From an uncultured Acidobacteriota bacterium (GTDB taxonomy: Bacteria > Acidobacteriota > Thermoanaerobaculia > UBA5066 > DATFVB01), in the NCBI GenBank assembly GCA_963773815.1, contig CAVZCI010000003.1:219669-283668 (forward strand): 64,000 nucleotides of DNA. The letters are read 5' to 3'. The notes beneath the pieces were generated by a model that worked only from the letters and a program-made list of their open reading frames with translations, had not been told where the DNA came from and searched no databases. Of this stretch, positions 24,216 to 42,703 are shown one piece after another. The first letter of the stretch is position 1. Each line of letters starts with the position of its first letter. Made by a program: the position numbers and the translations under genes.

Positions 24216-26623
24216 CCGCTTCGGCGCGCGCAGAAGCTCGCTCTTCCTGGTTCTCTCTTTTCTGCGCGGGAGGTCTGGGGGCCCAGGTCGCCCAGAATTC
24301 CTTCGACGCGAGCGACCCGTTCGCTTCGAGGTTCAAGGAAAAATCCCACTTCGAGATCAAGTTGAAGACCCCGAAGCCGGGCGGACCCGTCAAGATCACC
24401 GCGAAACAGGAAAATTGCCACGAGGACCTGAACGTGTGCGTGGCCGAGGGCGACGTCGTCGTCGAGTACCAGGACGTGAAAATCCAGGCCGACAAGCTCA
24501 CATTCGACCGGCGGACGAACCGGGCCGAGGCGGAAGGGCACGTGGTCATCGATCAGGGCCCGACGCGGATGGCGGGAAGCTCCGCGACCTTCGACCTGAA
24601 CGCGAAAACGGGAACGCTCCACGAAGCGGAGGCGGATCTCGAGCCGACGTTCCACGTGATCGCGAAGACGATTTCCAAAGTCGGGGAAGAAACCTACGAG
24701 ATCGAGGACGGCATCTTCACCGCCTGCTCTGTTCCGCATCCGTCCTGGTCGTTCGCGATGAAAAAGGCGAGGATCACGCTCGACGACTACGCGAGGATGA
24801 AAAACGTCTCCTTCCGGGCGGGGCCCGTTCCCCTGCTGTTCTCGCCCTACCTCCTCTGGCCGACGAAGGAGGGGCGGGTATCCGGATTTCTCGTTCCGGG
24901 GCTCGGGTTCAACAGCACGCGCGGGGCATTTCTCGGGCTCACGTATTACTGGGTGACGGGGCGCTCGACCGACCTCACGTCGGAGCTCGACCTGTATTCG
25001 AAAGGCGTCATCGGGCTGGGAGAGGAGTTCCGATGGGCTCCTTCCGCGGAATCGGCGGGCGTTTTTCAGGGATTCGTGATCCGGGACAACCAGGCCGACA
25101 TCTGCGCCCCGGGAACGTCGGCCGACCCCGCGAAGTTCTGCATCCAGCCGAACGGGACGTCGGGAACTCTCGAAACGACCGCCCGGACCCAGACGCGGTG
25201 GAAGATCCGCCTGGATCACTCTTCGAGCGACCTTCCGTGGGACATGCGCGGCGTCCTTTCGATCCGCGACTATTCCGATCCGAACTATCTGCAGGATTTC
25301 GAGCGGTCTTACGCGCTCAACTCGGCCCGGCAGATCGTTTCCACCGGATTCCTGACGAAGAACATCGGCGACGACTCGCTGAACCTCCGGCTCGAGCGAA
25401 GCGAGACGTTCTTTTCGAACGACGTCCTTCTCGAGCGCACGCCGTCGCTCGAATTCTCGCATCGGACGTCGAAAATCGGGGAGACGCCGCTGTACGCGGC
25501 GCTCGACGCGTCGTTCTCGCGCCTCTTCGTCAACCGCGGGGCGAACGCCCCGCACGGCGGGTACGACCGCGCCGACCTGCATCCGGTTCTCTCGCTGCCC
25601 ATCAAGAACATCCCCTGGCTTTCCTTCACCGCGCGCGTCGGTGGACGCGTGACGGAGTACACCGATTCCGTGACGCCCCTGACCGGAGCGGGGCAATCTT
25701 TCGCGGGGCAGTCGCTCCGTCGGACGTATTCGGAGGCGAGCGCGTCGCTCGTCGGCCCGTCGTTTTCGCGGATCTACGATTTCTCGCTCGGGCCGTTCGA
25801 GCGCTGGAAGCACATCCTCGAACCGCGCGTCGACTACAACTACGTCGCCGACGTGCGTTTCTCGCCGTCGCGCGACTGCACGGGAATCTCTTCCGGCGCG
25901 GAGTGCCCGCAGAACACGCTCGCGAACGTGCCCCTGTTCGACGAGGTGGATTCCGTTTACGGGCAGAATTCCGTGACGTACCGGCTCGTGAACCGGCTTC
26001 TCGCGAAGACGGGAGGCGAAAACGCTCCCGCAGCCCAGGAGATCGCTTCGCTCGACGTGTCGCAGACCTACAACTTCCGCTATCCGCAGACCTCCGTCTC
26101 GCCCGGAACGACGATCGTCCTGCCGCCCCGATCGGGTCCGATCCAGGCCGTGCTGCGCATCGCTCCGGTGCCGGCGTTCCACCTCGACGCGCAGGCCGCG
26201 TACGACCAGTCGGTCTCGCGCGCGACCTCGTTTTCGTTTGCTGCGGGCGCGAACTGGAAGAACGAGTACGCCAGCGTCACGTGGACCGCCTCGCGGCCGA
26301 CCCTGACGACGCCCCCGGGGCCGCCCCCGCCGGTCGGGTACCCCGTGACGTCGCCGAATTCCGATTTCATCCGGGCGTCCGCGGGCGTCAACCTGTTCAC
26401 GCCGAAGCTTCGGCTCGACACGCTGTTGAACTACGACGCGCAGCTCAAGCAGGTCACGGAGGATCGGTCGCTCCTCACGTTCACCGGCTCCTGTTACACG
26501 ATCCTGCTCGAGGTCAGCAACCTCCGCGTCCCGGTCGCGCGCCACGACTACCGGCTCGTCATCAACCTGAAGAACATCGGGACGCTGCTGGATTTGAACG
26601 GGGGGTTGGACAAGATCTTCTGA
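24210..26623 (+). CDS. lptD: LPS-assembly protein LptD; signal peptide in a different frame, start uncertain
   Basis: OstA-like N-domain ([26 protein letters not shown]), PYLLWP, large beta-barrel. Confidence 0.85.
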
Positions 26624-26705
26624 GCACGAGCGCGGGTCACAGGCGCCTCCCTCGAGGAGACGCAGCGCGCCTGGCGGTGGCATCTTTCCGTGCGCGCTCC
26701 TCGGC

Positions 26706-26764
26706 TAAATTTTTTCGCAAGTTGTGCTAAACCGGAGTCTCAGCTGCTCCAGCGAAAAAACTTA
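26706..26764. repeat. AT-rich inverted repeat within a hairpin-rich intergenic region
   Basis: TAAATTTTTTCGC / GCGAAAAAACTTA (12 of 13 complementary), flanked by direct CGCTCCTC. Confidence 0.55.
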
Positions 26765-26978
26765 CGCTCCTCTCGGGCGCCCCGTGACCCGCGCCAGCTC
26801 GCCCGCGAAACTCGTCAGCGGCACGACAGCGAGGCGCGGCGAGCCGCGAGCCAGGTGAGATGCGGGCGAACGCGACGTCCCGAGGCGTACTGCGGCAAGT
26901 ACGTCGCAGGGCGACGCGGGCGGCACGCGCCCACATGGCTCGATGGATCGTCCGCGCCCTTGATAGGATGCCAACTCG

Positions 26979-28043
26979 ATGAAAGGTCTCATCCTCTCCG
27001 GCGGAAAGGGCACGCGGCTGCGGCCGCTGACGCACACGTCCGCGAAGCAGCTCGTGCCGGTCGCGAACAAGCCCGTTCTTTTCTACGCGATCGAGGCGAT
27101 CGTCGCCGCCGGCATCCGGGAGATCGGGATCGTCGTCGGAGACACGCGCGAAGAGGTCAAGGCCGCCGTCGGGGACGGCTCCCGGTTCGGCGCGAAGATC
27201 CGCTACATCGAGCAGGACGCGCCGCGCGGCCTCGCGCACGCGGTGCTGATCTCGGAGGATTTCCTTCGCGGCGAGCCGTTCGTCATGTACCTCGGCGACA
27301 ACCTCATCGCGAGCGGCATCACGTCGCTCGTCGACGAGTTCCAGCGGCTCAAATGCAACTCCCAGATCCTGCTCGCAAAGGTCCCGAATCCGTCGTCGTT
27401 CGGCGTCGCCGAGCTGTCGGACGGCAAAATCGTGCGCCTCGTCGAGAAGCCGGAACACCCGAAGTCGGACCTCGCCCTCGTCGGCGTGTACATGTTCGAC
27501 GACTCGATCTTCGAGGCCGTCCACGCCATTCGGCCTTCGTCCCGCAACGAGCTGGAAATCACCGACGCCATCCAGTGGCTCGTCGATCACGGCCGGTCGG
27601 TGCACCCGCACCTGGTGACCGGCTGGTGGAAAGACACGGGCAAGGTCGAGGACATGCTGGAGGCGAATCGAATCATCCTCGACACCGTTCAGGCGACCAT
27701 TCCGGCGACGCTGGGTCCGGGATCCCGCCTGGAGGGGAAGGTCGTGCTCGAAGAAGGCGCCACGCTCCACAACGCGATCGTCCGAGGCCCCGCCGTCATC
27801 GGAAAGGGCGCCCTGATCGAGAACGCGTTCGTCGGCCCCTACACGGCGATCGGCGCCGGCTGCCGGATCGTGAACTGCGAGATCGAAAATTCGATCGTCT
27901 GGGAGGGCTCGGAGATCCGCGACATCCCCGTGCGCATCGCGGATTCGCTGATCGGGCGCGGCGTCAAGATCCATCGCGGCGAAATCCGCCCGAAAGTCCA
28001 CCGGTTCCTCGTGGGGGACAACTCGGAGATCGGGATCGTATGA
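26979..28043 (+). CDS. rmlA: Glucose-1-phosphate thymidylyltransferase (long form)
   Basis: GGKGTRLRPLT, KQLVPVANKP, RNELEITDA, WWKDTG; C-terminal left-handed beta-helix. Confidence 0.95.
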   Translation: MKGLILSGGKGTRLRPLTHTSAKQLVPVANKPVLFYAIEAIVAAGIREIGIVVGDTREEVKAAVGDGSRFGAKIRYIEQDAPRGLAHAVLISEDFLRGEPFVMYLGDNLIASGITSLVDEFQRLKCNSQILLAKVPNPSSFGVAELSDGKIVRLVEKPEHPKSDLALVGVYMFDDSIFEAVHAIRPSSRNELEITDAIQWLVDHGRSVHPHLVTGWWKDTGKVEDMLEANRIILDTVQATIPATLGPGSRLEGKVVLEEGATLHNAIVRGPAVIGKGALIENAFVGPYTAIGAGCRIVNCEIENSIVWEGSEIRDIPVRIADSLIGRGVKIHRGEIRPKVHRFLVGDNSEIGIV

Positions 28044-28058
28044 ACGCGCTTCGCGCTC

Positions 28059-28120
28059 ACCTCACCCCCCGGCCTTCGGCCTACTCCACTCTGGGCGCAG
28101 CCGTGGAGAGGCGGGAAGGC
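28059..28120. repeat. REP-like palindrome
   Basis: ACCTCACCCCCCGGCCTTCGGCC...GGAGAGG. Confidence 0.6.
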
Positions 28121-28142
28121 CAGCGATTCGGGTTCGAGGTTC

Positions 28143-29155
28143 ATGAAGATCCTCGTCACCGGCGGCTGCGGCTTCATCGGCAGCGCGTTCATCCGCAACG
28201 TGCTCGGGAGCCGCCCCGGCGTTTCCGTCGTCAATCTCGACAAGCTGACCTATGCCGGCAATCCGCGAAACGTCGCGGAAGTCGCCGACTCTCCTTCGTA
28301 CCGCTTCGTTCTCGGCGACATCTGCGATCCCGCGGCCGTCGCCGACGCGATGGCGGGTTGCGACGTCGTCGTGAATTTCGCGGCGGAGACGCACGTCGAC
28401 CGGTCGCTGCTGGGAGACGCCTCGTTCATCGACACGGACGTCAAGGGCGTCTTCGTTCTTCTCGAGGAGGCGAAGCGCATCGGCGTGAAGAAGTTCATCC
28501 AGATCTCGACCGACGAAGTGTACGGTTCGATCGAGACCGGCAGCTTCACCGAGGACTCGAAGCTCACGCCCCGAAATCCGTATTCGGCCTCCAAGGCGGG
28601 AGGCGACCGGCTCGCGTATTCGTACTGGGCGTCTTACAAGGTGCCGGTCGTCATCACGAGGGCGTCGAACAACTACGGTCCCTACCAGTATCCGGAAAAG
28701 CTCATTCCCCTCTTCGTGACGAACGCGCTCGACGATCTCCCCGTCCCTCTTTACGGCGACGGGAAGAACGTGCGCGACTGGCTCCACGTCGACGACCACG
28801 CGGCCGCCGTCGAGTTCCTGATCGATCGGGGCAGCCGGGCGAGGTCTATAACGTCGCGGGCGGAAACGAGACGGAGAACATCGAGATCACGAAGAGAATC
28901 CTGAAGATCCTCGGAAAGCCGGAGAGCCTGATCCGGCCGGTCGTCGACCGGTCCGGCCACGACCGCCGCTATTCGCTCGACGCGGGCAAGCTCGCGCGGC
29001 TCGGCTTTTCGCCGAAGCGCCGCTTCGACGAGGCGATCGAGTCGACCGTGGCCTGGTACGTCGATCACCCCGAGTGGTGGAGGCCGATCAAGGACCACGA
29101 CCCCCACTACCGCGACTACTACAAGACCCAGTATTCCGAACGTCTGCGCTCGTGA
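28143..29155 (+). CDS. rmlB: dTDP-glucose 4,6-dehydratase; frameshift near 28835
   Basis: GGCGFIG, AAETHVDRS, STDEVYG, YSASK, NNYGPYQYPEKLIP; DRSGHDRRY in a second frame. Confidence 0.95.
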
Positions 29156-29167
29156 TTCTTCGCGAGA

Positions 29168-29370
29168 CTCGCTCGGCCCGGATCGCGGCCAGCCCCTGCG
29201 CCGGCTCGGCGAGCGGGTCCTGTCGCGGCACTCGACCCACTTTTCCGCTCGCTGCGGATCGAGGACTTTGCTACGACTCCGCGCCGCGAGCGGCAAAAGG
29301 GGTCTCGCGCCCCGCCACCCGCTCTATTCCTTGCGCCGGCGCCGGGGCTTTCAGCGGCCGGGCGAGCGAG
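29168..29370. mobile_element. MITE-like dispersed repeat, copy 1
   Basis: Terminal IR CTCGCTCGGCCCGG / CCGGGCGAGCGAG; shares a 38-nt identical block with 47472-47645. Confidence 0.6.
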
Positions 29371-29393
29371 ACCAGCGTTTGCGGTCGTCGAGG

Positions 29394-30272
29394 ATGACGT
29401 CCCGCGTTCTCGTCACCGGCGGCAGAGGGATGCTCGCGCTCGACCTGAAGCCGCGGCTCGAGGCGGCGGGCTACGAAGTCGTCTCGCCGAACAAGGCGCA
29501 GCTCGACATCACGCAGGCCGGACACGTCTCCGCGATCTTCGCGACGCTCAAGCCGCAGGCCGTCTTCAATTGCGCCGCATTCACGAAGGTCGACCTTTGC
29601 GAAACCGACCCGCTCGCGGGCGCCGTCAACGACGTGGCGGTCGGAAATCTCGCGGAGGCTTGCCGGCGATTCGGATCCCGGCTCGTGCACGTTTCGACCG
29701 ACTTCGTCTTCGGCGGGGAGAGCCGAGAGCCGTACCGGGAAGAAGACGAAGCCGCGCCCCTCTCGGCGTACGGCCGGACGAAGCGCGGCGGAGAGGTCCG
29801 GGCTTTGTCGCTGCCGGGCGCTCTCGTCGTGCGCGGGTCGTGGCTGTTCGGAAACGGCGGCCCGAACTTCGTCGAGGCGATCCTGAAGCAGGCGGAAGCC
29901 GGCAAGCGAAGCATCCACGTCGTGACCGACCAGACGGGCCGCCCAACGGCGACGACGGATCTCGCGGACGCGCTCGTCGAGCTGTATCGGCTCGGCGCCG
30001 CGGGGGTCGTTCACTTCGCCAACTCCGGAGCAGTCACGTGGAACGAGTTTGCGAAGGAGATCCTGCGCCAGGCGGGCCATGCGGCCGTTGAGGTCGTTCC
30101 GATCACGTCCGAGGAACTGAACCGACCCGCCCGCCGCCCGGCGTATTCGGTTCTGTCGACGGAAAAATTCGAACGATTGACGGGAATGAAGCCGCGCGAT
30201 TTTCGCGAGCCGCTCGCGGAGTACCTGGAACGGCGGGGGGAGCGCGTCGCGCGCGGGGAACATTCGACCTGA
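29394..30272 (+). CDS. rmlD: dTDP-4-dehydrorhamnose reductase
   Basis: GGRGMLA, CAAFTKVD, STDFVF, YGRTK, RPAYSVL. Confidence 0.95.
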   Translation: MTSRVLVTGGRGMLALDLKPRLEAAGYEVVSPNKAQLDITQAGHVSAIFATLKPQAVFNCAAFTKVDLCETDPLAGAVNDVAVGNLAEACRRFGSRLVHVSTDFVFGGESREPYREEDEAAPLSAYGRTKRGGEVRALSLPGALVVRGSWLFGNGGPNFVEAILKQAEAGKRSIHVVTDQTGRPTATTDLADALVELYRLGAAGVVHFANSGAVTWNEFAKEILRQAGHAAVEVVPITSEELNRPARRPAYSVLSTEKFERLTGMKPRDFREPLAEYLERRGERVARGEHST

Positions 30273-32681: not shown

Positions 32682-32721
32682 AACACGGAAGTCCTCGTGT
32701 TCCGTCCCGTCGACCGTCCTC

Positions 32722-33144: not shown

Positions 33145-33382
33145 GTCGCCGCAGAAAGTCGCGCATCCGCTCCCGGCTCGCGAGATCGAGATCGTCCGCG
33201 AGGCGCCCGGCGACGACGACCCATCGAACCTTTCTCGCGGTTGTGCGCTTTCGGTGGCGAAGCGAGGTCAGCTCTCTTCGCAAGCCTCGCTCGAGAATCT
33301 TCTTGACCGTGCTCCTCGTTTCGGCGGCTCGTTTCTTCGCCGCGATCAGGAGCTCATCCGGCAATTCGACGGTCGTTTTCAT
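33131..33382 (-). CDS. vapB: VapB-type RHH antitoxin
   Basis: MKTTVELPDELL..AK; overlaps vapC; tandem CCATAT repeats upstream (33390-33404). Confidence 0.88.
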   Translation of the reverse strand: MKTTVELPDELLIAAKKRAAETRSTVKKILERGLRRELTSLRHRKRTTARKVRWVVVAGRLADDLDLASRERMRDFLRRHDRD

Positions 33383-34314
33383 GAGCGACCCATATTACCA
33401 TATCGGTGTTTCTCCGCCTCCGCGAGCGGGTAGCTGCGTTCCATTCCTTCCCTCACCCCGATCGGGTCGTAGCCAAGGTCCCGGCGGGCCTCGGAGTTGT
33501 CGGGCGCGGCGTCCTGCTCGATGCGGCTGATCGCGTAGCGCGTGAGCGGCGGGTTCTTCATCGTCTTTTCCATGAGGAACGCCGCCGCGCGGCAGACCGG
33601 CAGGGGAATGTAAACGAACGGTTTCGAGACTCCCTGGTGGCGCAGCATCAGCTTCGCGAGGTCGCGGATCGAGATCTCCTCGCCGCCGCTGAAGTTGTAG
33701 GTCTTGCCGTGGCTCTTCGGGTTGTTCGCGATCGCGAGGAGTCCTCGCCCGATGTCTTCGACGAAGACGGGGTTTTTCCGGGCAAGCCCCCGTCCGACGA
33801 AGGGGACGACGGGATACCGGAGCAGCGATTCCAGAAATCCCATGAATTCCAGCCCGCCGCCGCGCTCGTACGCGAGCGTCGGCCGCACGATCGTCCACGC
33901 CATCGGGCTCGCGGAGCGGACGATCTCTTCCGCGTCTGCCTTGGAGAGGGCGTATTCGGAGATCGGGTCGATTGCCGAAGTCGACGAAATGAAGACGAAG
34001 TGCCGGACGCCGGCTCGCTGCGCCGCCTCGACGACGTTCCTCGTTCCCTCCGTATTGACGCGCCGGAAGATCGTCGGATCGCTCGACAGGATGACTCCCG
34101 CCAGGTGAAACACCGTCTCGACTCCTTCGAAGAGTCCCGCGAGAGTCTCGCTTCGCGCGATGTCCCCGAACACGATTTCCGCGTTCACCCCTTCCAGCCG
34201 CGCCGCGTTCGGGTCGCCGGGCAGCGTCAGGGCGCGCACCTGGTGGCCGGCGGCGGCGAGGTCCTTCACGAACCGCGCGCCCATGACTCCCGCGCCCCCG
34301 GTGACGAAGATCAT
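33379..34314 (-). CDS. Atypical SDR / NAD-dependent epimerase (NDUFA9-like)
   Basis: TGGAGVMG, YALSK, IVRPT. Confidence 0.85.
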   Translation of the reverse strand: MIFVTGGAGVMGARFVKDLAAAGHQVRALTLPGDPNAARLEGVNAEIVFGDIARSETLAGLFEGVETVFHLAGVILSSDPTIFRRVNTEGTRNVVEAAQRAGVRHFVFISSTSAIDPISEYALSKADAEEIVRSASPMAWTIVRPTLAYERGGGLEFMGFLESLLRYPVVPFVGRGLARKNPVFVEDIGRGLLAIANNPKSHGKTYNFSGGEEISIRDLAKLMLRHQGVSKPFVYIPLPVCRAAAFLMEKTMKNPPLTRYAISRIEQDAAPDNSEARRDLGYDPIGVREGMERSYPLAEAEKHRYGNMGRS

Positions 34315-34328
34315 CAGACGCCCTCTCC

Positions 34329-34418
34329 GACCTCACCCCCGGCCTTCGGCCACCCCCTCCCGCGCTGACCCGTCTTCTGAAGGGCTGCCAGCGGGAGAGG
34401 GGGACGGGGGGTGAGGTT
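34329..34418. repeat. REP-like palindrome
   Basis: GACCTCACCCCCGGCCTTCGGCCACCCCCTCCC...GGGAGAGGGGGACGGGGGGTGAGG. Confidence 0.75.
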
Positions 34419-34435
34419 CAAGCGAATACCTCTTC

Positions 34436-35200
34436 TCATGCAGTTTCGATTGCGGTCTTGACGCCGAGAATCCGCTGATACTCGCCGCGCCGGTAGCGCC
34501 GCACGACGGCGAGCACGTCAAGGCCGTAGGAAACGGGCTTCAGGTGCGAGACCTCGTCCGCGTATCGCGTGGGAATCGCGACCTCCGCGATTCGCAGGCC
34601 GAGGATTCGCGCGCACACGAGCATTTCGAGGTCGAAGTCGAAGGAATCGGACAGCCGCGCGAACGGAATCGTCTCGAGCGCCCGGCGCGAATAGAGCATG
34701 TAGCCGCTGTGGAACTCCGCCAGGCGCATGCCGAACGCGCGGTTCTCGACGGCCGTCAGCAGCCGGTTCGCCGCGTACTTGTAGAACGGCATTCCGCCGG
34801 CGAGCGCTCCGCCGCCGAGCATCCGCGAACCCTGCACGAGATCGGCCTCGCCGCGGCGAAGGGGCGCGGAGAGCTCCGGGAGCTTTTCGGGGGCGTACTG
34901 CCCGTCGGCATGGACGATCGCGGCGATGTCCACCCCTGTTTCGAGCGCGTGGGCCAGGAGCGTCTTGACCGCGCCGCCGTAGCCGCGGTTCTTCGGATGC
35001 CGGAGAATCACGAGCGGCGGCAGCTCCGATCGGAGCCGCTCGAGAACCCGCGCCGTGTCGTCGGAGCTCCCGTCGTCCACGGCCGCGTAGGCGTAGCGCG
35101 TCGCCGTCGCGTCGGAATTCCGGGGGAGCCGGGCGACGAGCCGCTCCAGCGTGAGCGCCGCGTTGTAAGCCGGAATCGCGATCAGGAGGGAATCAGGCAT
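34436..35200 (-). CDS. GT2 glycosyltransferase (polyprenol-phosphate sugar synthase-like)
   Basis: IPAYN, VDDGSSD, NRGYGGA, HADGQY, FHSGY. Confidence 0.9.
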   Translation of the reverse strand: MPDSLLIAIPAYNAALTLERLVARLPRNSDATATRYAYAAVDDGSSDDTARVLERLRSELPPLVILRHPKNRGYGGAVKTLLAHALETGVDIAAIVHADGQYAPEKLPELSAPLRRGEADLVQGSRMLGGGALAGGMPFYKYAANRLLTAVENRAFGMRLAEFHSGYMLYSRRALETIPFARLSDSFDFDLEMLVCARILGLRIAEVAIPTRYADEVSHLKPVSYGLDVLAVVRRYRRGEYQRILGVKTAIETA

Positions 35201-36344
35201 CCGATCGGGTACGGCCGGACGAAACGCGGCCGCTCGAATTCGCCGCGGCCGGAAAATCAGCCGGTCCGGGCGATCGCAGAGCCGCCTCGCGCCGGGCGTT
35301 GACGTAGTACTGCATGGTGGGGATCAGCATTTCGGACAATCCGGTCCGGGGCTGCCATCCCAGAAGGCGCTGGGCCTTGCCGATGTCGGGGATGCGCCGG
35401 TCCGAATCCTCGTATCCGTCCCCGTAAAACTCCTTCGCGGAAACCTCGATGATCGCCGGCAGGGGGGCGCCGTCGGGGGCGAAGTGGCGCGCGTAGAGCT
35501 CCCGCATCAACTCGGCCAGCTGGCGGATCGAGACTTCGTTTCCCGGAGAGCCGATGTTGAAAATCTGGCGGTCGCACCCTCCGCCCGGGTTTTCCACGAT
35601 CCGCGCGACGCAATCGACCGCGTCCTTGATGTAGGTGTAGCACCGGCGCTGGCCGCCGCCATCGACGAGCTTCATCGGCGTGCCTTCGAGCAGCGCTTCC
35701 ATGAAATACGAAAAGACTCGCGGCACGCCGTCGGTGTCGCCCGGAAGGTAGTCGATCTTCGGTCCGATGAAGTTGAACGGCCGAATGATCGAGTAGTTGA
35801 GACGCCCCTCCAGCCCGTAGGCGTGGATCACGCGCTCCAGGAGCTGCTTGGCGCAGGCGTAGATCCACCGGTGCCGGCCGACGGGCCCCATGATGAGGTC
35901 GGTGCGGTCCTCCGCGAACGTCGCATACGCGGGGTTTTCGGGGTCCGCGATCAACTCTCCGAGCACGGCCACGGGCGTTTTTCCGTACACCTCGCAGGAG
36001 GAAAACTGGATCAGCCGCCGACTCTTGCGAATGCACGACTCGGCGATCCGGAGATTCTCCTGGAAGTTGAGCCGGAAGACCTCGAGCGGGCTTCGAACGT
36101 AAATCCCCGGGTTCGCGTGAGCGACGAGATCGATGACGACGTCCGCCGCGGCGACCGCTCCGTCGAGATCGAACGTCCGGTCGGTCACGTCCCTCTCGAC
36201 GAAGGTCAGGCGCGGGTGGTCGAGCAAATCCGCGATTTTGTCCGTGTGCACGTCGATTCCGGTCACGTCGTGCCCGCTTTCGAGCAGACGTTCCGCCAGA
36301 TGGGCTCCGATGAAACCGCCCGCCCCGAGACTCAACACCTTCAC
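35193..36344 (-). CDS. UDP-glucuronate decarboxylase family SDR, UDP-apiose/UDP-xylose synthase-like
   Basis: GAGGFIG, FSSCEVYGKT, RWIYACAKQLLER, RPFNFIGP, GVPRV, KLVDGG, KEFYGDGYEDSDRRIPD; AGGAGG RBS. Confidence 0.8.
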   Translation of the reverse strand: MKVLSLGAGGFIGAHLAERLLESGHDVTGIDVHTDKIADLLDHPRLTFVERDVTDRTFDLDGAVAAADVVIDLVAHANPGIYVRSPLEVFRLNFQENLRIAESCIRKSRRLIQFSSCEVYGKTPVAVLGELIADPENPAYATFAEDRTDLIMGPVGRHRWIYACAKQLLERVIHAYGLEGRLNYSIIRPFNFIGPKIDYLPGDTDGVPRVFSYFMEALLEGTPMKLVDGGGQRRCYTYIKDAVDCVARIVENPGGGCDRQIFNIGSPGNEVSIRQLAELMRELYARHFAPDGAPLPAIIEVSAKEFYGDGYEDSDRRIPDIGKAQRLLGWQPRTGLSEMLIPTMQYYVNARREAALRSPGPADFPAAANSSGRVSSGRTRSDA

Positions 36345-36494
36345 GATTCCCCCTCCTGTGCGGGCTCCCGGCGAATTCCGGCCGATGCCGGCGCGATTCC
36401 CTGGTTCCGCGGCGGATGAATTTCCGTTTATCTTATCCTCGCCCGGGGGCCATTCGGAAGGCGAAAATCGCGAAGGTGTTAGATTCCCGCCGAG

Positions 36495-37876
36495 ATGGCC
36501 CCGCAACCCCGAATTCCGGCCAACGACTGGAAGCGAAAGGCGCTCCATGCGGGAATGGGTCTTTTCGCCCTCGCTCTGCGCTTTCTCTCCTGGCCGGCCG
36601 CGGCGCTGCTCGCGGCAGCCGCATTGCTTTTCAACGTCGCGGTCATGCCCCGGCTCGGCCGCGGGGTCTACCGCGACGCCGGCCGCCGGCACGATCCGGG
36701 AATCGTCGCGTACCCGGCCGTCGTGCTCGCCGTCATCCTGCTTTTTCGGCATGATCTGGAGGTCGCGGCGGCGATCTGGGGGATGATGGCGCTTGGCGAC
36801 CCCCTGGCTTCCGTCGTGGGAAAGCTCATCGGCGGGCCGGCTCTTCCCTGGAACCGCAGGAAAACCTGGTCCGGCTCGATTGCCTACGCCGCGTTCGGGG
36901 CGGCCGCCGGCTCGCTGCTGTTCGCGTTCGTCGGGCGGATTCCCTTCGGAAGCGCGGTCTCGTCGTTCGCCCTCTTCGCGGTGCTCGGGGCATTCCTCGA
37001 ATCGATCGAGACCGGTTTCGACGACAACCTGACGCCGGGCCTCGGCGTCGCCTTTGCCTACGCGACGCTCCATCTCGGGGTGTTCGCCCGGGAGGGGTTC
37101 TCCCTTTCCGGCGTGCGCTCCCGTTTCGCTTCCCGTCGCTCTTGCGGTCAACGCGGCGATCGCCGGCCTCGCGACCGCGATTCGCGTGGTCTCCCTGTCG
37201 GGCGGAATCGCCGGCGCGCTCGCGGGTCTCGTCGTCCTTCGCTTCGGGGGCTGGGGAGCCTACGCGGTCCTCTGGGCGTTCTTTCTCTTCGGGACCGTCG
37301 CCTCGAAGCTCGGGTATTCGCGCAAGGAGAGGCTCGGCACCGCCCAGGCGAACCGGGCCCGCCGCGGCGCGCGCCATGTCGCGGCGAACGTCGGCGTCGG
37401 GGCCTGGCTCGCTTTCGCGGCCGGCGCCCGCTCGGCGGGCTCGCCGATCCTGGCGCTCGCGCTGGCCGGCTCGTTTGCCGCGGCTCTCGCCGACACGTTC
37501 GGCACGGAGCTCGGCACGCTGTACGGCGGCCGCCCTTACCTGCTCTCGAAGGGGAAGAGGGTCGCGCCGGGCACGAGGGGAGCGATTTCTCCGGCCGGCG
37601 TCGGCGGAGGCCTTCTCGGCGCGCTTCTGATCGGCGTGACGGGCGCTCTGGCCGGGCTCTACCCGGCGTCGGCTCCTGTGGATCGTGTTCCTCGGGGGCG
37701 TCCTCGGATCGCTCGCGGAAAGCCTCCTGATCGACCTTTCGGCCCGAATGGGGATCGACGCGGACCATGAATTCTGCAACGCGTTCAACACGTTCGTCGG
37801 CGCGGCGGCCGCGATCGAGATCGCGGCCTCGTTCGCTCTCGGCTCGGTCTTTGTTCCGTTCGGGAAGCTCGCTTGA
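36495..37876 (+). CDS. Fused prenol (phytol/dolichol) kinase-like + DUF92 membrane protein; two frameshifts
   Basis: N-half RKALH, GDPLASVVG, KTWSGS, DDNL; C-half KERLG, ADTFGTELG, PGTRGAIS, AESLL, NAFNT. Confidence 0.8.
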
Positions 37877-38868
37877 AGCCGCGGTCCGCGCTTGCGGCGC
37901 ACGTCGCTCTGTGGAGGCCCTTCACGCTGTTGCCGCCGCTGCTGGGCATTCTCTCCGGCGCGATCTGCGCATACGGGTCCGCGCACAACCCGGACCCCGC
38001 CCGCCGAGTGACGGGCGCGGTGCTTTTCACCGTGATCCTCGGCTCCATTTGCGCCTCGGCGATGAACGCCGCTTCGAACATCGTCAACCAGATCGCCGAC
38101 CTCGAGATCGACCGCAAGAACAAGCCGGGACGCCCCCTCGTCACGGGCGAGGTCACGATTCGATCTTCCTGGAAGATCGCCTGGGCGCTCTACGCGTTTT
38201 CGATCCTTCCGACCTGGTTCGTCGTGCCGTTTCCCCGGACGAGCTTCCACGAGCGCCTCACGGCGCCGTTGATCGAGCACGCGTGTTTCTTCATCTACGC
38301 GATCGGCCTCCTCGCGACGTTCGTGTATTCCTTCCGCGCGCTCGGCCGCACCAAACGCCACTGGTTCTGGGCGAATTTCACGATCGCGTCGACCCGGGGA
38401 TGCCTGCTGAAAGTCGCCGGGTGGTCCTTCCTCGCCCGCGTCAGCAGCTGGGAGCCGTGGGCGCTCGGGGGCGTGATGGGACTCTTCCTCCTCGGGGCGA
38501 CGTCGACGAAGGATTTCTCCGACATCGAGGGGGACGCGCTCCACGGGTGCCGGACGCTGCCGATTCGTTTCGGGGTCTCGGGCGCGGCGAAGATCATGGC
38601 CCCGTTCTTCGTCGTTCCGTGGCTGCTGCTTTCCGCGTTCTCGTTCGCGGCCGACCCGGCGCGTCCGGGGTCGCCCCTCCTGACGGGCAACCACGCCTTT
38701 CTCCTGTCGTTTGGGATCGCGATGGCGGCCTGGGGGGCCTACACGGCGTCGCTCCTCCTTCGGGACCCCGACGCCCTGACCTCGACGGAGAATCACCCGG
38801 CCTGGCGGCACATGTATTTGATGCTCATGGCCGCGCAAACGGGTTTCGCCGCGGCGTATCTGGTGTAA
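37873..38868 (+). CDS. UbiA superfamily prenyltransferase (DGGGP synthase / chlorophyll synthase-like)
   Basis: NQIADLEIDRKNKPGRPL and KDFSDIEGD..GCRTLP Asp-rich motifs; TTGA overlap. Confidence 0.88.
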   Translation: MKPRSALAAHVALWRPFTLLPPLLGILSGAICAYGSAHNPDPARRVTGAVLFTVILGSICASAMNAASNIVNQIADLEIDRKNKPGRPLVTGEVTIRSSWKIAWALYAFSILPTWFVVPFPRTSFHERLTAPLIEHACFFIYAIGLLATFVYSFRALGRTKRHWFWANFTIASTRGCLLKVAGWSFLARVSSWEPWALGGVMGLFLLGATSTKDFSDIEGDALHGCRTLPIRFGVSGAAKIMAPFFVVPWLLLSAFSFAADPARPGSPLLTGNHAFLLSFGIAMAAWGAYTASLLLRDPDALTSTENHPAWRHMYLMLMAAQTGFAAAYLV

Positions 38869-38877: not shown

Positions 38878-39246
38878 ATGAGCTGGGAACGCGCGGTCCA
38901 CTTCGCAGGTCCCGTCGCCCTCCTGCTCATCAGCCTGCGGCCGCTCCTGCGCCGCCGCGGCCACCACACGATCGACCGGCGAACCGCCTGGCTCTGCCTC
39001 CTCGGCGGTTTCGTTTGGCCCCTGTCGGTCGTGCTTCGCCTCGCCTCCGGCTTTCCGACGGACCGCGTGTTCGAGCTGCTCGACTCCGCCTCGATTTTCT
39101 TCGGCGGAGTTCTGTTCGCTTATGGATTCTGGGCCCTGCGTCGCGTCCGATTCTCGCTTCACTCCGATGGCGACGATTGGTCGTTGAGGTACCGGAACTC
39201 GGAGCGCCGCGTGAAGAATCGCTCGAACTCCGAGCGGCCCTCCTGA
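38878..39246 (+). CDS. Small membrane protein
   Basis: Three hydrophobic segments; TAAAAT 6 nt before the ATG. Confidence 0.5.
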   Translation: MSWERAVHFAGPVALLLISLRPLLRRRGHHTIDRRTAWLCLLGGFVWPLSVVLRLASGFPTDRVFELLDSASIFFGGVLFAYGFWALRRVRFSLHSDGDDWSLRYRNSERRVKNRSNSERPS

Positions 39247-39843: not shown

Positions 39844-39916
39844 CTCACCTGATCCTACGGCCGCCGGCTGGAAAAGTTCCCCGCGGGCGATTATGATACG
39901 CTGATTTTTTGGGAGC

Positions 39917-40369
39917 GTGATGCCTCATTTCATTCAAGATACGTGCATTGGTTGCGGGGTTTGCGAGGTCAAGTGCCCGACCCACACCATCACGGGCGAC
40001 AAGAAGGAAAAGTACGTCATCCACGCCGATCGCTGCATCGATTGCTCGGTCTGCGCCCGCTATTGTCCCGTCTCGTGCATCGAAAACAACGCCGGCCAGC
40101 TCGTCGAGAAGGTCAAGCCCAAGGACATTCCGAAGGCGATCGTCGACCGCGACCTGTGCACGGGCTGCGAGTTCTGCATCGACATCTGCCCGTTCGACTG
40201 CATCTACCTGATCGAGGATCCGCTCCACGAGACGATGGTGCACAAGATCGCGGAAGTCGAGGCGGGTCCCTGCGTGTCCTGCCGCCTGTGTGAAACGGTC
40301 TGCGACAAGGACGCGATTTTCGTCCCCAATCCCATCACCCAGGCCAAGCGTTTCCTCCCGGTGCTCTGA
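39917..40369 (+). CDS. Polyferredoxin, four [4Fe-4S] motifs
   Basis: CIGCGVC..CP, CIDCSVC..CP, CTGCEFC..CP, CVSCRLC..VC; no signal peptide. Confidence 0.9.
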   Translation: MMPHFIQDTCIGCGVCEVKCPTHTITGDKKEKYVIHADRCIDCSVCARYCPVSCIENNAGQLVEKVKPKDIPKAIVDRDLCTGCEFCIDICPFDCIYLIEDPLHETMVHKIAEVEAGPCVSCRLCETVCDKDAIFVPNPITQAKRFLPVL

Positions 40370-40370
40370 C

Positions 40371-41243
40371 GTGGACGAAGAACCCGCTCCTCCCGAGCCG
40401 CGCGGCGGCCGACTCGTCCTTCAGTTCTTCCTCGTTCCTCTGCTCGTCGTGGCCGTCTGCGTCGGGATCTTCTTTCTGTTCTCGCTCCTCACGTTCGAGC
40501 ACAAGTCGCCGGCCGACTACCTCGCCGACGTGAAAGGCGGAGCCGCGAACCAGCGCTGGCAATCCGCTTTCGAGTTGTCGCGCGCGGTCGCGAGGATTCC
40601 TCCCGGTCCGGAGCGCCAGAAGCTCGCCGCCGGCACGCTCGACGTCTTCACCCATCTGAAGAGCGACCGCGCCGACGACCGCGACGTGAAACGTTACCTC
40701 GCGCTCGTCCTCGGCCGCCTGCAGGACCGCTCGGCGATCCCGGCTCTCGAGGAGAGCGCGCGCGACTCCGACCCGATGGTCCGGCTCTATTCCGTCTGGG
40801 CCCTCGGGATGCTGGGGGACGCGGGCGCGGTGCCGACGGTGATCGCGGAATCCGAGGCCGAGGACCCCGGAGCCCGGAAGATGGCCGCCTACGTTCTCGG
40901 AAAAATCGGCGATCGCCGGGCCGTGCCGCGGCTGACGGCGATGACGGCGGATCACGTCGCCGACGTGCGGTGGAACGCCGCGATCGCGCTCGCGGAGCTC
41001 CGCGACGGCGGCGGGAAGGAAGTGCTCCGGTCGATGCTCGACCGCCGCGCGCTCGCGCGGCAGGCGGAAAACCTGCGGCCTTCCCAGGTCGAGGAAGCGA
41101 TGATCAACGCCGCGAAGGCCGAGGCCCTCCTCGGGGACGAGCAGGCGCGGCCGATCCTCGAAGAGCTCGCCCGGAGCGACGAGAGTTTGAAGGTCCGCGA
41201 CGCGGCGCGTCGGGCGGCCGAAGCGCTCAAACCGCCATCTTGA
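40371..41243 (+). CDS. Membrane-anchored HEAT-repeat protein
   Basis: One TM helix, then repeats (VRLYSVWALG, ARKMAAYVLG, VRWNAAIALA, VRDAARRA). Confidence 0.85.
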   Translation: MDEEPAPPEPRGGRLVLQFFLVPLLVVAVCVGIFFLFSLLTFEHKSPADYLADVKGGAANQRWQSAFELSRAVARIPPGPERQKLAAGTLDVFTHLKSDRADDRDVKRYLALVLGRLQDRSAIPALEESARDSDPMVRLYSVWALGMLGDAGAVPTVIAESEAEDPGARKMAAYVLGKIGDRRAVPRLTAMTADHVADVRWNAAIALAELRDGGGKEVLRSMLDRRALARQAENLRPSQVEEAMINAAKAEALLGDEQARPILEELARSDESLKVRDAARRAAEALKPPS

Positions 41244-41296
41244 GCGCGCAAGGAGGGTTTTGATATGGTGAATTCCTCAAAGATGGGAATGCTCTG

Positions 41297-41848
41297 ATGT
41301 CCGCCCGCGAGCCGAAAATCGTTTCGAGCGCGCGCCCTTCCCCGGCGTCCGATCCGGAGGCCATGACCCGGCGCGACGCCGTCAAGTGGATGACGCTCGC
41401 CTGGGTGGGTTTCGCCGCGGCGGTCGGAGCCGCGCTGACGGCGACCGCCCGTTTCATGTTTCCCAACGTCCTGTTCGAACCGCCGACCCTCTTCAAGGCC
41501 GGCCTTCCGTCCGATTACGGTCTCGGGGTCGACGAGCGGTGGAAGGAGCGGTACGGCGTCTGGGTCGTCCGGAACACGGCGGAGATCTACTCCCTCATTT
41601 CGGTCTGCGTGCACCTGGGGTGCACGCCGAACTGGCTTCCGGCGCAGAACAAGTTCAAGTGCCCGTGCCACGGATCGGGCTACTACATCTCCGGAATCAA
41701 TTTCGAGGGACCTGCGCCCCGAGCCCTGGAGCGGGCGGCGATTTCGGTTTCTCCCGACGACGGCCAGTTGATCGTCGACAAGGGAACGAAATTCCTGTTC
41801 GAGCAGGGCCAGTGGACCGACCCCAAAGCTTTCGTGAAAGTCGGATAA
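41297..41848 (+). CDS. qcrA: Rieske iron-sulfur subunit of a Rieske/cytochrome b complex
   Basis: Tat-like TRRD plus TM; CVHLGC and CPCHGS boxes; GPAPRAL. Confidence 0.93.
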   Translation: MSAREPKIVSSARPSPASDPEAMTRRDAVKWMTLAWVGFAAAVGAALTATARFMFPNVLFEPPTLFKAGLPSDYGLGVDERWKERYGVWVVRNTAEIYSLISVCVHLGCTPNWLPAQNKFKCPCHGSGYYISGINFEGPAPRALERAAISVSPDDGQLIVDKGTKFLFEQGQWTDPKAFVKVG

Positions 41849-41914
41849 GATCGCTCGCGATTTTTTGAGGATGCTTGTGAATCCACAGCTGCGTGACGAG
41901 TGCGAGGTTCGGGC

Positions 41915-42703
41915 ATGATCGGCAGGCTCCGCGACATTCAGAAGTCGGTCGTCGACAGCCAGATCTGGAAGTCGATCTTCCGGGTCGGCGTGCCCAACAC
42001 GAACCGCAAGCGCGTTCTCGCGATGCTCGGCAACGTCGTCCTCCACCTGCATCCGGTCAAGACGCGCAAGTCGGGCGTGAAAATGCGCTACACGTGGTGC
42101 GCCGGGGGAGTGACGTTCTTCCTCTTCCTCGTGCTGACGTTCACGGGTCTGCTCCTGATGTTCTACTACCGGCCGACCGTCGAATACGCCTACGTCGACG
42201 CTCTCGACCTGAGGGAGCAGGTGCCGTTCGGAATCATGCGCGAGATCCACCGCTGGGGCGCCCACGCGATGGTCATCGCGGTGTGGATCCACATGTTCCG
42301 CGTCTTCATGACCGGATCCTACAAGCCGCCGCGCGAGTTCAACTGGGTCGTCGGCGTGATCCTGCTCGTGCTGACGCTGCTCCTTTCCTTCACCGGCTAC
42401 CTTCTGCCGTGGGACCAGCTCGCGATCTGGGCGATCACGGTCGGCTCCAATATGGCGGGCGCCACGCCTCTCGTCGGCACGCAGGGTCCGGGCACGGCGT
42501 TGCTCAAGATCGGCGACATTTCGCTCGTGACGTCGACCGACGACGCGCGATTCGCGCTGCTCGGCGGGCGGTTCGTGGGCGCCGGAGCCCTGCTGCGCTT
42601 CTACGTTCTGCACTGCGTCGGCATCCCGCTCGTCGCGGCCTTTCTGATGGCGGTTCATTTCTGGCGCGTCCGGAAGGACGGCGGAATCAGCGGACCGGTC
42701 TGA
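41915..42703 (+). CDS. qcrB: Cytochrome b6-type N-terminal subunit
   Basis: WCAGG (heme ci Cys position), [26 protein letters not shown]...VHF, ends GISGPV. Confidence 0.92.

What the first reader, a model, noticed from the sequence alone, without database searches (positions are those of the whole stretch)
36495..38868. Prenol kinase-DUF92 fusion coupled to a DGGGP-synthase-like UbiA: candidate isoprenoid salvage pathway
Seen: a CTP_transf_1-type kinase domain fused to DUF92, overlapping a UbiA gene whose Asp-rich motifs resemble the DGGGP/chlorophyll synthase branch. Established: plant VTE5 (same kinase family) and VTE6 (DUF92) convert phytol to phytyl-PP, which UbiA enzymes use. Inference: free polyprenol is re-phosphorylated twice and transferred to an unknown acceptor in a non-phototroph, giving an unusual ether lipid or prenylated compound. 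The operon is divergent from the GT2/UAS-like operon, which needs polyprenyl phosphate.
Basis: partly seen in the sequence, partly recalled or inferred. Interest (0 to 1): 0.62.

Follow-up and report, generated by a model that had tools for sequence, protein, structure and literature searches.

The report
Fused prenol kinases beside a prenyltransferase
An uncultured soil or sediment Acidobacterium carries a gene pair kept across its phylum: one membrane protein joining two probable isoprenoid-alcohol kinases, coupled to an unclassified prenyltransferase. The pair probably makes an unidentified prenylated lipid, and in this assembly the kinase gene is broken by two single-base insertions that look like sequencing errors.

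Summary
The domains and the gene order are real. A prenol-kinase-like domain (36495-37114) runs into a DUF92/VTE6-like domain (37116-37876). A UbiA gene (37873-38868) starts on the fusion's stop codon (cTTGAa).

The window's copy is not one open frame. Two uncompensated +1 insertions, at 37115 and 37669, split it over three frames. All 40 relatives in the order have a single frame covering residues 1-461. Many other conserved genes of this assembly are also frame-shifted, so assembly error is the likely cause.

In 301 sampled Acidobacteriota, 98 have the UbiA ortholog and 96 of those also have the kinase/DUF92 gene. The two are adjacent in 64.

The UbiA forms its own clade. It lies outside the quinone/haem enzymes and outside ChlG/BchG, and is nearest by profile to archaeal DGGGP synthase and chlorophyll synthase. 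Its Mg/diphosphate motifs are intact. GGGP synthase, tocopherol cyclase, geranylgeranyl reductase and bacteriochlorophyll genes are absent, so the acceptor is unknown.

The divergent GT2/ArnA-like operon is found only in this genus. The phylum-wide context is LptD, then SDR genes, then fusion and UbiA.

This is a new variant of the VTE5/VTE6-to-UbiA scheme, already seen repeatedly in this scan.

The parts
36495..37114 (+). N-terminal domain of the fusion (about 205 aa, frame 0). It is a prenol/polyprenol-kinase-like membrane domain and a divergent member of CTP_transf_1.
   Evidence: The window copy has no Pfam or NCBIfam hit. Of 23 orthologs, 9 hit PF01148, with the best E 3.7e-6 and one at the gathering score of 24.0, covering profile positions 64-222 of 264. 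hhalign against E. coli CdsA gives probability 56% and E 1e-4 on the GDxxAxxxG...K(S/T)WxG signature. The conserved residues are R14 and H18 (near-invariant; K15 in most copies), G101-D102, K123, G127, E169 and D177-N178. The AF2 model has pLDDT 89.5 and 7 helices.
37115..37115 (+). First uncompensated single-base insertion (extra G). It shifts the reading from frame 0 to frame 1.
   Evidence: The DNA alignment with the intact ortholog of G002 reads TCCGGCGT[G]CGCTCCCG against TCCGGCGT[-]CGCTCCCG. The tblastn matches change frame between 37112 and 37117.
37116..37668 (+). Main part of the DUF92 (VTE6-like, COG1836/TIGR00297) domain, in frame 1.
   Evidence: PF01940 scores E 5.3e-36 and 124.7 bits, covering profile 3-177 of 251. 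TIGR00297 scores 95.9 bits, below its cut-off of 205.85, on this piece.
37669..37669 (+). Second uncompensated single-base insertion. It shifts the reading from frame 1 to frame 2.
   Evidence: The alignment reads ACCCGGCG[T]CGGCTCCT against ACGCCGCC[-]CGTCTCGT. The tblastn matches change frame between 37665 and 37670.
37670..37876 (+). C-terminal 68 residues of DUF92 (frame 2), with the TGA stop at 37874-37876.
   Evidence: This stretch is 63-75% identical to the C-termini of intact orthologs. With both insertions removed conceptually, the DUF92 match extends to profile position 204 and 137.5 bits.
37873..38868 (+). UbiA-family prenyltransferase (331 aa) of an uncharacterised acidobacterial clade. 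Its TTG start overlaps the fusion's stop.
   Evidence: PF01040 scores 107.3 bits. A profile of 18 orthologs against the PDB scores MjDGGGPS at 89 bits, ChlG at 77, AfUbiA at 43 and ApUbiA at 34.5. In the tree the clade has 99/99 support and is separate from ChlG/BchG and from the quinone/haem group. N72, D76, D80, Y152, K161, D214, D217 and D221 are invariant.
38878..39246 (+). Small predicted membrane protein (122 aa) directly downstream. It is conserved only within this family of genomes.
   Evidence: It has no family match. It is present after the UbiA in L002, L006, L007 and L014 but not in other families or classes.
33379..36224 (-). Divergent three-gene operon, given as context only. It holds an ArnA-C-terminal/UDP-xylose-synthase-like decarboxylase (35193-36224), a GT2 polyprenyl-phosphate glycosyltransferase-like gene (34436-35200) and an SDR (33379-34314).
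   Evidence: The NCBIfam scores are 284 bits for PRK11908 and 272 for ArnA. The GT2 matches PpgS, dolichyl-P hexose transferase and ArnC only weakly. The SDR's N-terminal part scores 107 bits to HpnA. The operon sits next to the fusion only in the same genus and not in L014 or other families.
24257..30236 (+). Upstream conserved context: lptD (24257-26620), rmlA (26979-27686), rmlB (28143-29152, frame-shifted near 28830) and rmlD (29394-30233).
   Evidence: This is shown by tblastn with L014 proteins and by NCBIfam equivalog hits above their cut-offs for RmlA, RmlB and RmlD. LptD lies upstream of the module in most loci across the phylum.

Best explanation
One membrane protein carries two consecutive lipid kinases. 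The N-terminal domain resembles the CTP-dependent prenol kinases (VTE5, FOLK, PolK, dolichol kinase). It would phosphorylate a free isoprenoid alcohol, probably in the C15-C20 range. The C-terminal DUF92 domain, the family of plant VTE6, would add the second phosphate. The resulting allylic prenyl diphosphate would be used by the translationally coupled UbiA enzyme. That enzyme keeps the complete Mg2+/diphosphate-binding motifs and would transfer the prenyl group to an acceptor that is not yet known. The acceptor is not GGGP, not chlorophyllide, and probably not a tocopherol-type homogentisate route. The likely product is a prenylated membrane or envelope lipid.

Shown here: the domain families, the fusion, the coupling, the phylum-wide co-occurrence and adjacency, and the separate UbiA clade with intact catalytic residues.

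Inferred: both kinase activities, the chain length, the origin of the alcohol (salvaged from outside, recycled from the product, or made by the neighbouring SDR reductases), and the acceptor.

In this window the gene is read in three frames because of two single-base insertions. These are most likely assembly errors (about 80%).
For: Fusion: a single open frame covers residues 1-461 in 40 of 40 relatives. More than 100 database proteins of 430-470 aa align at 92-100% coverage.

N-domain: PF01148 matches in 9 of 23 orthologs. The CdsA signature is aligned by hhalign. An R-K-x-x-H motif has the same spacing as the Arg29/Lys30/His33 'charged clamp' proposed for the CTP pocket of the assayed prenol kinase PfPolK (PMC10849223).

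DUF92: 124.7 bits to PF01940. VTE6 is a phytyl-phosphate kinase of this family (PMC9782597, PMC10849223).

Coupling: the TTG start overlaps the TGA stop, and the two genes overlap by 4 bp in L014.

Co-distribution in 301 Acidobacteriota: the UbiA is in 98 and the kinase/DUF92 gene in 130. Both occur in 96, the UbiA alone in 2, and neither in 169. The Fisher odds ratio is 239 with p = 2e-46, not corrected for phylogeny. The two are adjacent within 1.5 kb in 64 genomes and on the same strand in 60.

UbiA motifs: the residues equivalent to MjDGGGPS N62, D66, D70, Y125, K130, D180, D183 and D187 are invariant (PMC9385802).

Assembly error: the window and the same-genus G002 differ by 76 single-base indels in 48 kb. 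There are 13 frame switches in 9 of 27 conserved ORFs of the window and 5 frame switches against L014. The genome's MqnP-like and UbiX genes are broken too. The closest relatives are long-contig MAGs of one metagenome series (MFD isolates; one record is named like a nanopore assembly).
Against: - No enzyme of this clade has been assayed.
- The window's own N-domain has no significant family match. Its fold search is not significant: the best TM-score is 0.41, to CdsA, at E 0.77.
- The genome has three polyprenyl diphosphate synthases, so a dedicated salvage route is not obviously needed for FPP or GGPP.
- No geranylgeranyl reductase was found that could make phytol-type chains.
- The frameshifts could be real, and reads could not be checked.
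- The co-occurrence statistics ignore shared ancestry.
Confidence: 0.55

Rival explanations
1. The module belongs to lipid-linked glycan synthesis. The kinase regenerates polyprenyl phosphate as a sugar carrier for the neighbouring GT2, ArnA-like and rhamnose genes. The UbiA acts like mycobacterial decaprenyl-phosphate phosphoribosyltransferase, loading a sugar phosphate onto polyprenyl phosphate.
For: The module is adjacent to a GT2 with weak similarity to polyprenyl-phosphate glycosyltransferases and to an ArnA-C-terminal-like enzyme. It also lies next to rmlA/B/D and lptD. LptD and sugar-nucleotide-type SDR genes lie upstream across the phylum.
Against: The UbiA's similarity to DPPR synthase is marginal: 16.9 bits in NCBIfam and 21 bits in the PDB search. 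This compares with 77-93 bits for ChlG, DGGGPS and PRK12884. A second kinase (DUF92) making the diphosphate would be pointless for a monophosphate carrier. The GT2/ArnA-like operon is specific to this genus.
Confidence: 0.1
2. The N-terminal domain is a cytidylyltransferase (CdsA/CarS-like), not a kinase. It would activate the UbiA product to a CDP-lipid, as in the archaeal route from DGGGP synthase to CDP-archaeol synthase.
For: The only detectable family is CTP_transf_1, which also contains CDP-diacylglycerol synthases. CdsA is the best structural neighbour by TM-score. The UbiA is nearest to DGGGPS among solved structures.
Against: GGGP synthase is absent from all 41 relatives. The match covers only profile positions 64-222 of 264. 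The domain ends in a conserved E...DDN motif, with no match to the profile's last 40 positions. From memory, that is where CdsA carries its C-terminal HGG..DR.D signature. The R-K-x-x-H clamp matches an assayed prenol kinase (PMC10849223). Fusion to a VTE6-family domain fits two successive phosphorylations.
Confidence: 0.07
3. In this particular genome the fusion gene is a true pseudogene. The two insertions are real, and the pathway is being lost or works through the UbiA alone.
For: There are two independent frame-breaking insertions in a 1.4-kb gene, neither in a long homopolymer. The reads could not be inspected.
Against: No stop codon, deletion or other damage remains once the two bases are ignored. 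The corrected product is 83% identical to the intact same-genus ortholog over its full length. Similar frame breaks affect many conserved genes here, including rmlB, a CoA-transferase subunit, the Fer4/HEAT protein, and MqnP-like and UbiX genes. The sister assembly shows the same kind of noise in other genes.
Confidence: 0.18

Closest known systems
Plant and cyanobacterial phytol salvage: VTE5 (phytol kinase), then VTE6 (phytyl-phosphate kinase, DUF92/COG1836), feeding the UbiA enzymes HPT/VTE2 and chlorophyll synthase
   Same: Both have the same two protein families in the same logical order, two successive phosphorylations of an isoprenoid alcohol, and a UbiA-family enzyme as consumer of the diphosphate (PMC9782597, PMC10849223).
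   Different: Here the two kinases are one polypeptide, translationally coupled to the UbiA. The host has no photosynthesis genes, no tocopherol cyclase and no geranylgeranyl reductase over its cut-off. The UbiA is neither ChlG nor HPT by curated cut-offs. From memory, unverified because the paper is not held, the PlantSEED study that predicted VTE6 used clustering of COG1836 with phytol kinase in prokaryotes.
Archaeal DGGGP synthase (M. jannaschii, PDB 6M31)
   Same: It is the best-scoring solved relative, at 89 bits and E 2.7e-24. The residues corresponding to N62, D66-x3-D70, Y125...K130 and D180/D183/D187 are conserved (PMC9385802).
   Different: The equivalog cut-offs are missed by a wide margin: 53 bits against 296. 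Its position relative to DGGGPS in the tree is unresolved. The enzyme that makes its substrate, GGGP synthase, is absent in 41 of 41 relatives.
Chlorophyll / bacteriochlorophyll synthase (ChlG, BchG; PDB 9SAU)
   Same: It is the second-best solved relative, at 77 bits. ChlG/BchG genes are the only UbiA genes on 72,556 plasmids that the window protein matches.
   Different: The protein lies outside the ChlG+BchG clade, which has 100/99 support. It scores 86.5 bits against a cut-off of 313. No Bch or Puf genes are present in the genome.
Prenol kinase PolK of Plasmodium, FOLK of Arabidopsis, and dolichol kinase (CTP-dependent, CTP_transf_1-related)
   Same: They share the R-K-x-x-H clamp, the GD..A...G...K(S/T)..G signature, a multi-helix membrane domain of similar size, and a conserved acidic residue near the C-terminus (PMC10849223).
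   Different: Sequence similarity is too low for a direct match from the window copy. The activity is untested. This domain is fused to the second kinase, whereas no such fusion is described in the papers read.

Membership tests
UbiA prenyltransferase superfamily (PF01040) | Pfam match above the gathering score | tested here: met
   The score is 107.3 bits against a cut-off of 34.2.
UbiA prenyltransferase superfamily (PF01040) | Two Asp-rich motifs plus the Y...K motif that bind Mg2+ and the prenyl diphosphate | tested here: met
   N72, D76, D80, Y152, K161, D214, D217 and D221 are invariant in 18 orthologs. They were aligned to the MjDGGGPS motifs (PMC9385802).
DGGGP synthase | NCBIfam equivalog score for DGGGPS | tested here: not met
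   The scores are 53.1 bits against 296 and 50.3 against 353.
DGGGP synthase | The pathway partner GGGP synthase (PcrB family), which supplies the acceptor | tested here: not met
   None of 41 genomes is over the cut-off. There are only four sub-threshold fragments.
DGGGP synthase | Placement inside the DGGGPS clade | tested here: inconclusive
   The tree has a single DGGGPS reference, and that is a fragment. The node joining DGGGPS, ChlG/BchG and the acidobacterial clade is unresolved.
Chlorophyll/bacteriochlorophyll synthase | Equivalog or subfamily score, and placement in the ChlG/BchG clade | tested here: not met
   The scores are 86.5 bits against 313 and 70.9 against 212.3. The ChlG+BchG clade (100/99) excludes the protein.
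Chlorophyll/bacteriochlorophyll synthase | Presence of a (bacterio)chlorophyllide pathway in the genome | tested here: not met
   There is no PufL/M, BchX/Y/Z, BchC, BchD or BchP hit at E < 1e-5 in the genome, which is 79% complete.
Homogentisate phytyltransferase (VTE2/HPT) | Equivalog score and the tocopherol cyclase partner | tested here: not met
   The score is 55.8 bits against 226. PF14249 is absent in 41 of 41 genomes. No HPT reference was available for the tree.
Quinone/haem UbiA enzymes (UbiA, MenA, MqnP, CyoE/CtaB) | Profile score and tree placement | tested here: not met
   The scores are 21-37 bits. The protein lies outside the group of UbiA, MqnP-like and CyoE/CtaB (95/95) and outside MenA. 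The genome has its own CtaB (268.6 bits against 210.3) and an MqnP/UbiA-like gene (219 against 180.8).
DUF92 / VTE6 (PF01940, TIGR00297, COG1836) | Pfam match above the gathering score | tested here: met
   The broken piece scores 124.7 bits against 27.5. The conceptually joined protein scores 137.5 bits.
DUF92 / VTE6 (PF01940, TIGR00297, COG1836) | TIGR00297 curated cut-off | tested here: not met
   The score is 95.9 bits against 205.85, measured on the 193-residue middle piece only.
DUF92 / VTE6 (PF01940, TIGR00297, COG1836) | Prenyl-phosphate kinase activity | not testable with these tools
   Activity is known only for plant VTE6 (PMC9782597).
Prenol kinases of the CTP_transf_1 family (VTE5, FOLK, PolK, dolichol kinase) | Pfam PF01148 match | tested here: inconclusive
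   The window copy gives no match. Of 23 orthologs, 9 match, with the best E 3.7e-6 and one exactly at the gathering score. hhalign against CdsA gives probability 56%.
Prenol kinases of the CTP_transf_1 family (VTE5, FOLK, PolK, dolichol kinase) | Charged clamp R-K-x-x-H and the GD..A...G...K(S/T)..G signature | tested here: met
   R14 and H18 are nearly invariant, with K15 in most copies. G101, D102, K123 and G127 are invariant. The clamp is as described for PfPolK (PMC10849223).
Prenol kinases of the CTP_transf_1 family (VTE5, FOLK, PolK, dolichol kinase) | CTP-dependent phosphorylation of a prenol | not testable with these tools
   This needs an enzyme assay.

The most novel reading that the evidence does not exclude
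Much of the phylum Acidobacteriota makes an undescribed prenylated envelope lipid by a self-contained route encoded next to lptD. One or two SDR reductases would produce an isoprenoid alcohol. A single bifunctional enzyme would convert it to the diphosphate. A UbiA clade with a new acceptor specificity would attach it by an ester- or ether-type O-prenylation of a non-archaeal acceptor. An ester product would explain why recycling kinases are built into the operon.
Probability: 0.2. Interest if true: 0.75.

Novelty: new variant of a known kind. Interest (0 to 1): 0.45.

Why it matters
Acidobacteriota are among the most abundant soil and sediment bacteria, and their lipids are used as environmental proxies. 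This gene pair is present in about a third of sampled genomes of the phylum. It joins both steps of isoprenoid-alcohol activation in one protein and couples them to a UbiA clade of unknown acceptor. That points to a lipid or cofactor missing from current lipid inventories.

The fused enzyme would also be a compact, bacterial handle on the second step, prenyl phosphate to prenyl diphosphate. Outside plants the genes for that step are still unidentified (PMC10849223).

For this window specifically, the practical message is that the assembly has many single-base indels. Broken genes here should not be read as pseudogenes.

Tried and rejected
- Look-ups that found nothing: the window's UbiA and P0246 are not on record.
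- A stand-alone 199-aa kinase homolog (P0251) sits on short contigs without DUF92 or SDR neighbours, so it was uninformative.
- An N-domain profile against PDB sequences found nothing.
- Foldseek found no significant match.
- The one genome-contig scan returned only Acidobacteriota/Thermoanaerobaculia MAGs. It gave nothing on other phyla or on cultured hosts.
- Geranylgeranyl reductase: all 41 relatives have near-cut-off TIGR02032 matches. The example protein read (G004) carries a GWWWFIP motif typical of flavin-dependent halogenases, and BchP finds nothing in the genome. I therefore rejected these as GGR.
- The promoter and terminator scan was at chance level.
- The PlantSEED and vom Dorp VTE6 papers are not held.
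- Rejected readings of the UbiA: haem O synthase, or a quinone prenyltransferase serving the adjacent Rieske/cytochrome b genes. Both are covered by paralogs, and the cytochrome neighbourhood is specific to this family.
- orf122 was rejected as a core partner because it is found only in this family.
Full report
**What is in the sequence.**
Translating 36400-37960 in three frames shows three consecutive pieces of one protein.
- A membrane domain lies in frame 0, from the ATG at 36495 to about 37114.
- Most of a DUF92 domain lies in frame 1, about 37116-37668.
- The last 68 residues of DUF92 lie in frame 2, ending at the TGA at 37874-37876.

The listed ORF 36495-37730 (411 aa) is therefore real protein only in its first half. 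The rest is an Arg-rich out-of-frame read-through. DUF92 (PF01940) scores 124.7 bits on the middle piece, and the UbiA family (PF01040) scores 107.3 bits on 37873-38868. The UbiA's first possible start is the TTG at 37873, inside cTTGAa, so it overlaps the fusion's stop.

**The frameshifts.**
I aligned the DNA with the ortholog of a same-genus genome (G002; 83% amino-acid identity; a 463-aa open frame). The window has two uncompensated single-base insertions, at 37115 and 37669. Other small indels in the gene come in compensating pairs.

These breaks are not special to this gene.
- Against L014, four of 19 conserved genes in 26 kb change frame in the window: a CoA-transferase subunit near 23720, rmlB near 28830, the fusion twice, and the Fer4/HEAT protein near 40350.
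- Against G002, 9 of 27 conserved ORFs show 13 frame switches in the window. G002 itself shows 7.
- The two assemblies are about 90% identical in DNA and differ by 76 single-base indels in 48 kb.
- Elsewhere in the genome an MqnP-like gene, a UbiX gene and a third UbiA-like gene are also split.
- The genome is 20 long contigs yet only 79% 'complete'. Its nearest relatives are long-contig MAGs of one metagenome series (MFD isolates; one record name suggests a nanopore assembly).

I read the two insertions as assembly errors, at about 80%.

**The fusion is real and conserved.**
A conceptual 461-aa protein matches a single open frame over residues 1-461 in all 40 relatives of the order, which span 3 families and 13 genera. 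It also matches more than 100 database proteins of 430-470 aa, named only 'DUF92 domain-containing' or 'TIGR00297 family', from Thermoanaerobaculia. The UbiA follows the fusion in all 12 loci first examined.

In an even sample of 301 Acidobacteriota genomes:
- the UbiA ortholog is present in 98, across 68 of 186 genera;
- a kinase/DUF92 match is present in 130;
- both are present in 96, the UbiA alone in 2, and neither in 169;
- the Fisher odds ratio is 239 with p = 2e-46, not corrected for phylogeny;
- the two genes lie within 1.5 kb in 64 genomes, on the same strand in 60, and mostly on different contigs in the rest.

**The N-terminal domain.**
The window copy has no Pfam or NCBIfam match. 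The case rests on orthologs and motifs.
- Of 23 orthologous domains, 9 match PF01148 (CTP_transf_1). The best E is 3.7e-6, one reaches the gathering score, and the matches cover profile positions 64-222 of 264.
- A profile of the 23 aligns with E. coli CdsA on the family signature GD..A...G...K(S/T)W.G (hhalign probability 56%, E 1e-4).
- The alignment also shows an R-K-x-x-H motif near the N-terminus, with R and H nearly invariant, and a conserved E...DDN near the end.
- R-K-x-x-H has exactly the spacing of the Arg29/Lys30/His33 'charged clamp' proposed for the CTP pocket of the assayed Plasmodium prenol kinase (PMC10849223).
- The AF2 model is confident (pLDDT 89.5, seven helices). Its fold search is not significant, though CdsA has the best TM-score, 0.41.
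- A profile search of 1.84 billion representatives finds 7153 relatives. The best 150 are mostly fused forms of about 450 aa, with some of about 200 aa.

I conclude that this is a divergent prenol-kinase-type member of CTP_transf_1. A cytidylyltransferase role is less likely.

**The UbiA.**
- NCBIfam puts it nearest to PRK12884 (92.9 bits), ChlG (86.5), BchG (70.9), HPT (55.8) and DGGGPS (53). All are far below their cut-offs. Quinone and haem enzymes score 21-37 bits.
- A profile of 18 orthologs ranks solved structures as MjDGGGPS (89 bits), ChlG (77), AfUbiA (43), ApUbiA (34.5), UBIAD1 (22) and DPPR synthase (21).
- On 72,556 plasmids the only genes it matches are ChlG/BchG.
- In a maximum-likelihood tree the acidobacterial sequences form one clade (99/99). 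It is separate from ChlG+BchG (100/99) and from the group of E. coli UbiA, the MqnP-like gene and CyoE/CtaB (95/95). Its relation to DGGGPS and ChlG is unresolved, and no HPT reference was available.
- The residues equivalent to the catalytic N62, D66, D70, Y125, K130, D180, D183 and D187 of MjDGGGPS are invariant (PMC9385802). The enzyme should therefore bind a prenyl diphosphate.
- The genome has a separate haem O synthase, above its cut-off, and an MqnP/UbiA-like quinone enzyme.
- According to PMC9385802 (citing Hemmi 2004), UbiA clades follow the acceptor. A separate clade therefore argues for a different acceptor.

**What the acceptor is not.**
- GGGP synthase is over its cut-off in 0 of 41 relatives.
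- Tocopherol cyclase is absent in 41 of 41.
- The geranylgeranyl reductase model is below its cut-off in all 41. The near-cut-off example read (G004) carries a halogenase-type GWWWFIP motif.
- Sulfitobacter BchP, PufL/M, BchX/Y/Z, BchC and BchD find nothing in the genome, while CrtE finds three polyprenyl synthases.

So the organism is not a phototroph. An archaeal diether route, a tocopherol route and endogenous phytol synthesis are all unsupported.

**Context.**
Across classes the arrangement is lptD, then variable dTDP-sugar or RmlD-like genes, then an HpnA-like SDR, then the fusion, then the UbiA.
- The HpnA-like SDR scores 182-222 bits to TIGR03466. It also resembles SdmB, OleD and thioester reductases.
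- It sits directly upstream of the fusion in 15 of 20 phylum loci.
- In this window's order the HpnA-like gene is missing, and rmlA-rmlB-rmlD precede the fusion.
- Only in this genus is a divergent operon wedged between rmlD and the fusion. It holds an ArnA-C/UDP-xylose-synthase-like gene, a GT2 and an SDR.
- This window also has a 3.2-kb insert with an AmpH-like hydrolase and a PIN-domain (VapC-like) toxin pair that G002 lacks.
- The downstream Fer4/HEAT, Rieske, cytochrome b and multihaem genes and orf122 are conserved only within the family.

Earlier notes of this scan on other genomes describe the same module and context. I used them as leads, and my own tests agree with them.

**Literature.**
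Four full-text searches found no description of this fused kinase or of the acidobacterial UbiA clade. Bacterial DGGGPS homologs, including some in Acidobacteria, are noted as widespread and of unknown function (PMC6431249, PMC7852524). Outside plants, genes for the prenyl-phosphate kinase step are said to be unidentified (PMC10849223).

**Verdict.**
The module is a fused, non-phototroph variant of the VTE5/VTE6-to-UbiA scheme with an unknown acceptor. It is of moderate interest, and this window adds little beyond a frame-shifted copy.

Noticed in passing
window 21826-51552 (for example 23720, 28830, 40350, 50826-51550): Many conserved genes of this assembly change reading frame relative to close relatives. 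Examples are a CoA-transferase subunit, rmlB and the Fer4/HEAT protein. One ORF near 50.7-51.6 kb has four switches. The window and the same-genus G002 differ by 76 single-base indels in 48 kb, so both assemblies carry indel noise.
   Followed up: partly
window 30237-33414: A 3.2-kb stretch is absent from the same-genus genome G002. It carries an AmpH / class-C beta-lactamase-like serine hydrolase (31002-32681). It also carries a small PIN-domain (VapC-like) gene with an overlapping antitoxin-sized ORF (32722-33382).
   Followed up: partly
window 39917-46893: Downstream lies a cluster conserved within the family. It holds a Fer4/HEAT-repeat protein (frame-shifted here), a Rieske protein, a split cytochrome b (267 aa plus 361 aa) and a 1029-aa multihaem cytochrome c. 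A sigma-70-like promoter match lies at 39869-39897.
   Followed up: no
loci L028-L044 (for example L034:10358-11392, L042:10668-12559): In other classes of the phylum, an HpnA-like lipid-type SDR sits between lptD and the fusion, often preceded by an RmlD-like SDR without rmlA or rmlB. The HpnA-like gene is missing in this window's order.
   Followed up: partly
L138:4425-5684 (G004) and equivalents in all 41 relatives: There are full-length matches to the geranylgeranyl-reductase superfamily model just below its cut-off (110-157 bits against 158.8). The example read, a 419-aa protein of G004, has a GWWWFIP motif typical of flavin-dependent halogenases. In two genomes of the neighbouring genus the gene lies 12-17 kb from the fusion.
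   Followed up: partly
G000:C3:62631-64145 and G000:C10:261509-262412 (outside the window): A UbiX-like flavin prenyltransferase runs into an MqnP/UbiA-like prenyltransferase in one stop-free frame, with frame breaks. A third, weak UbiA-like gene is also split.
   Followed up: no
proteins P0246 and P0287: In two representatives of about 450-470 aa, the kinase-like domain lies in the C-terminal half (residues 219-390 and 259-405). This suggests a reversed domain order or another fusion partner.
   Followed up: no
G000 whole genome: No convincing Dxs or type-1 Idi homolog was found by tblastn. The genome, which is 79% complete, may therefore use the mevalonate route. A CrtI-like gene lies 7 kb from a polyprenyl synthase on contig C12.
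   Followed up: no
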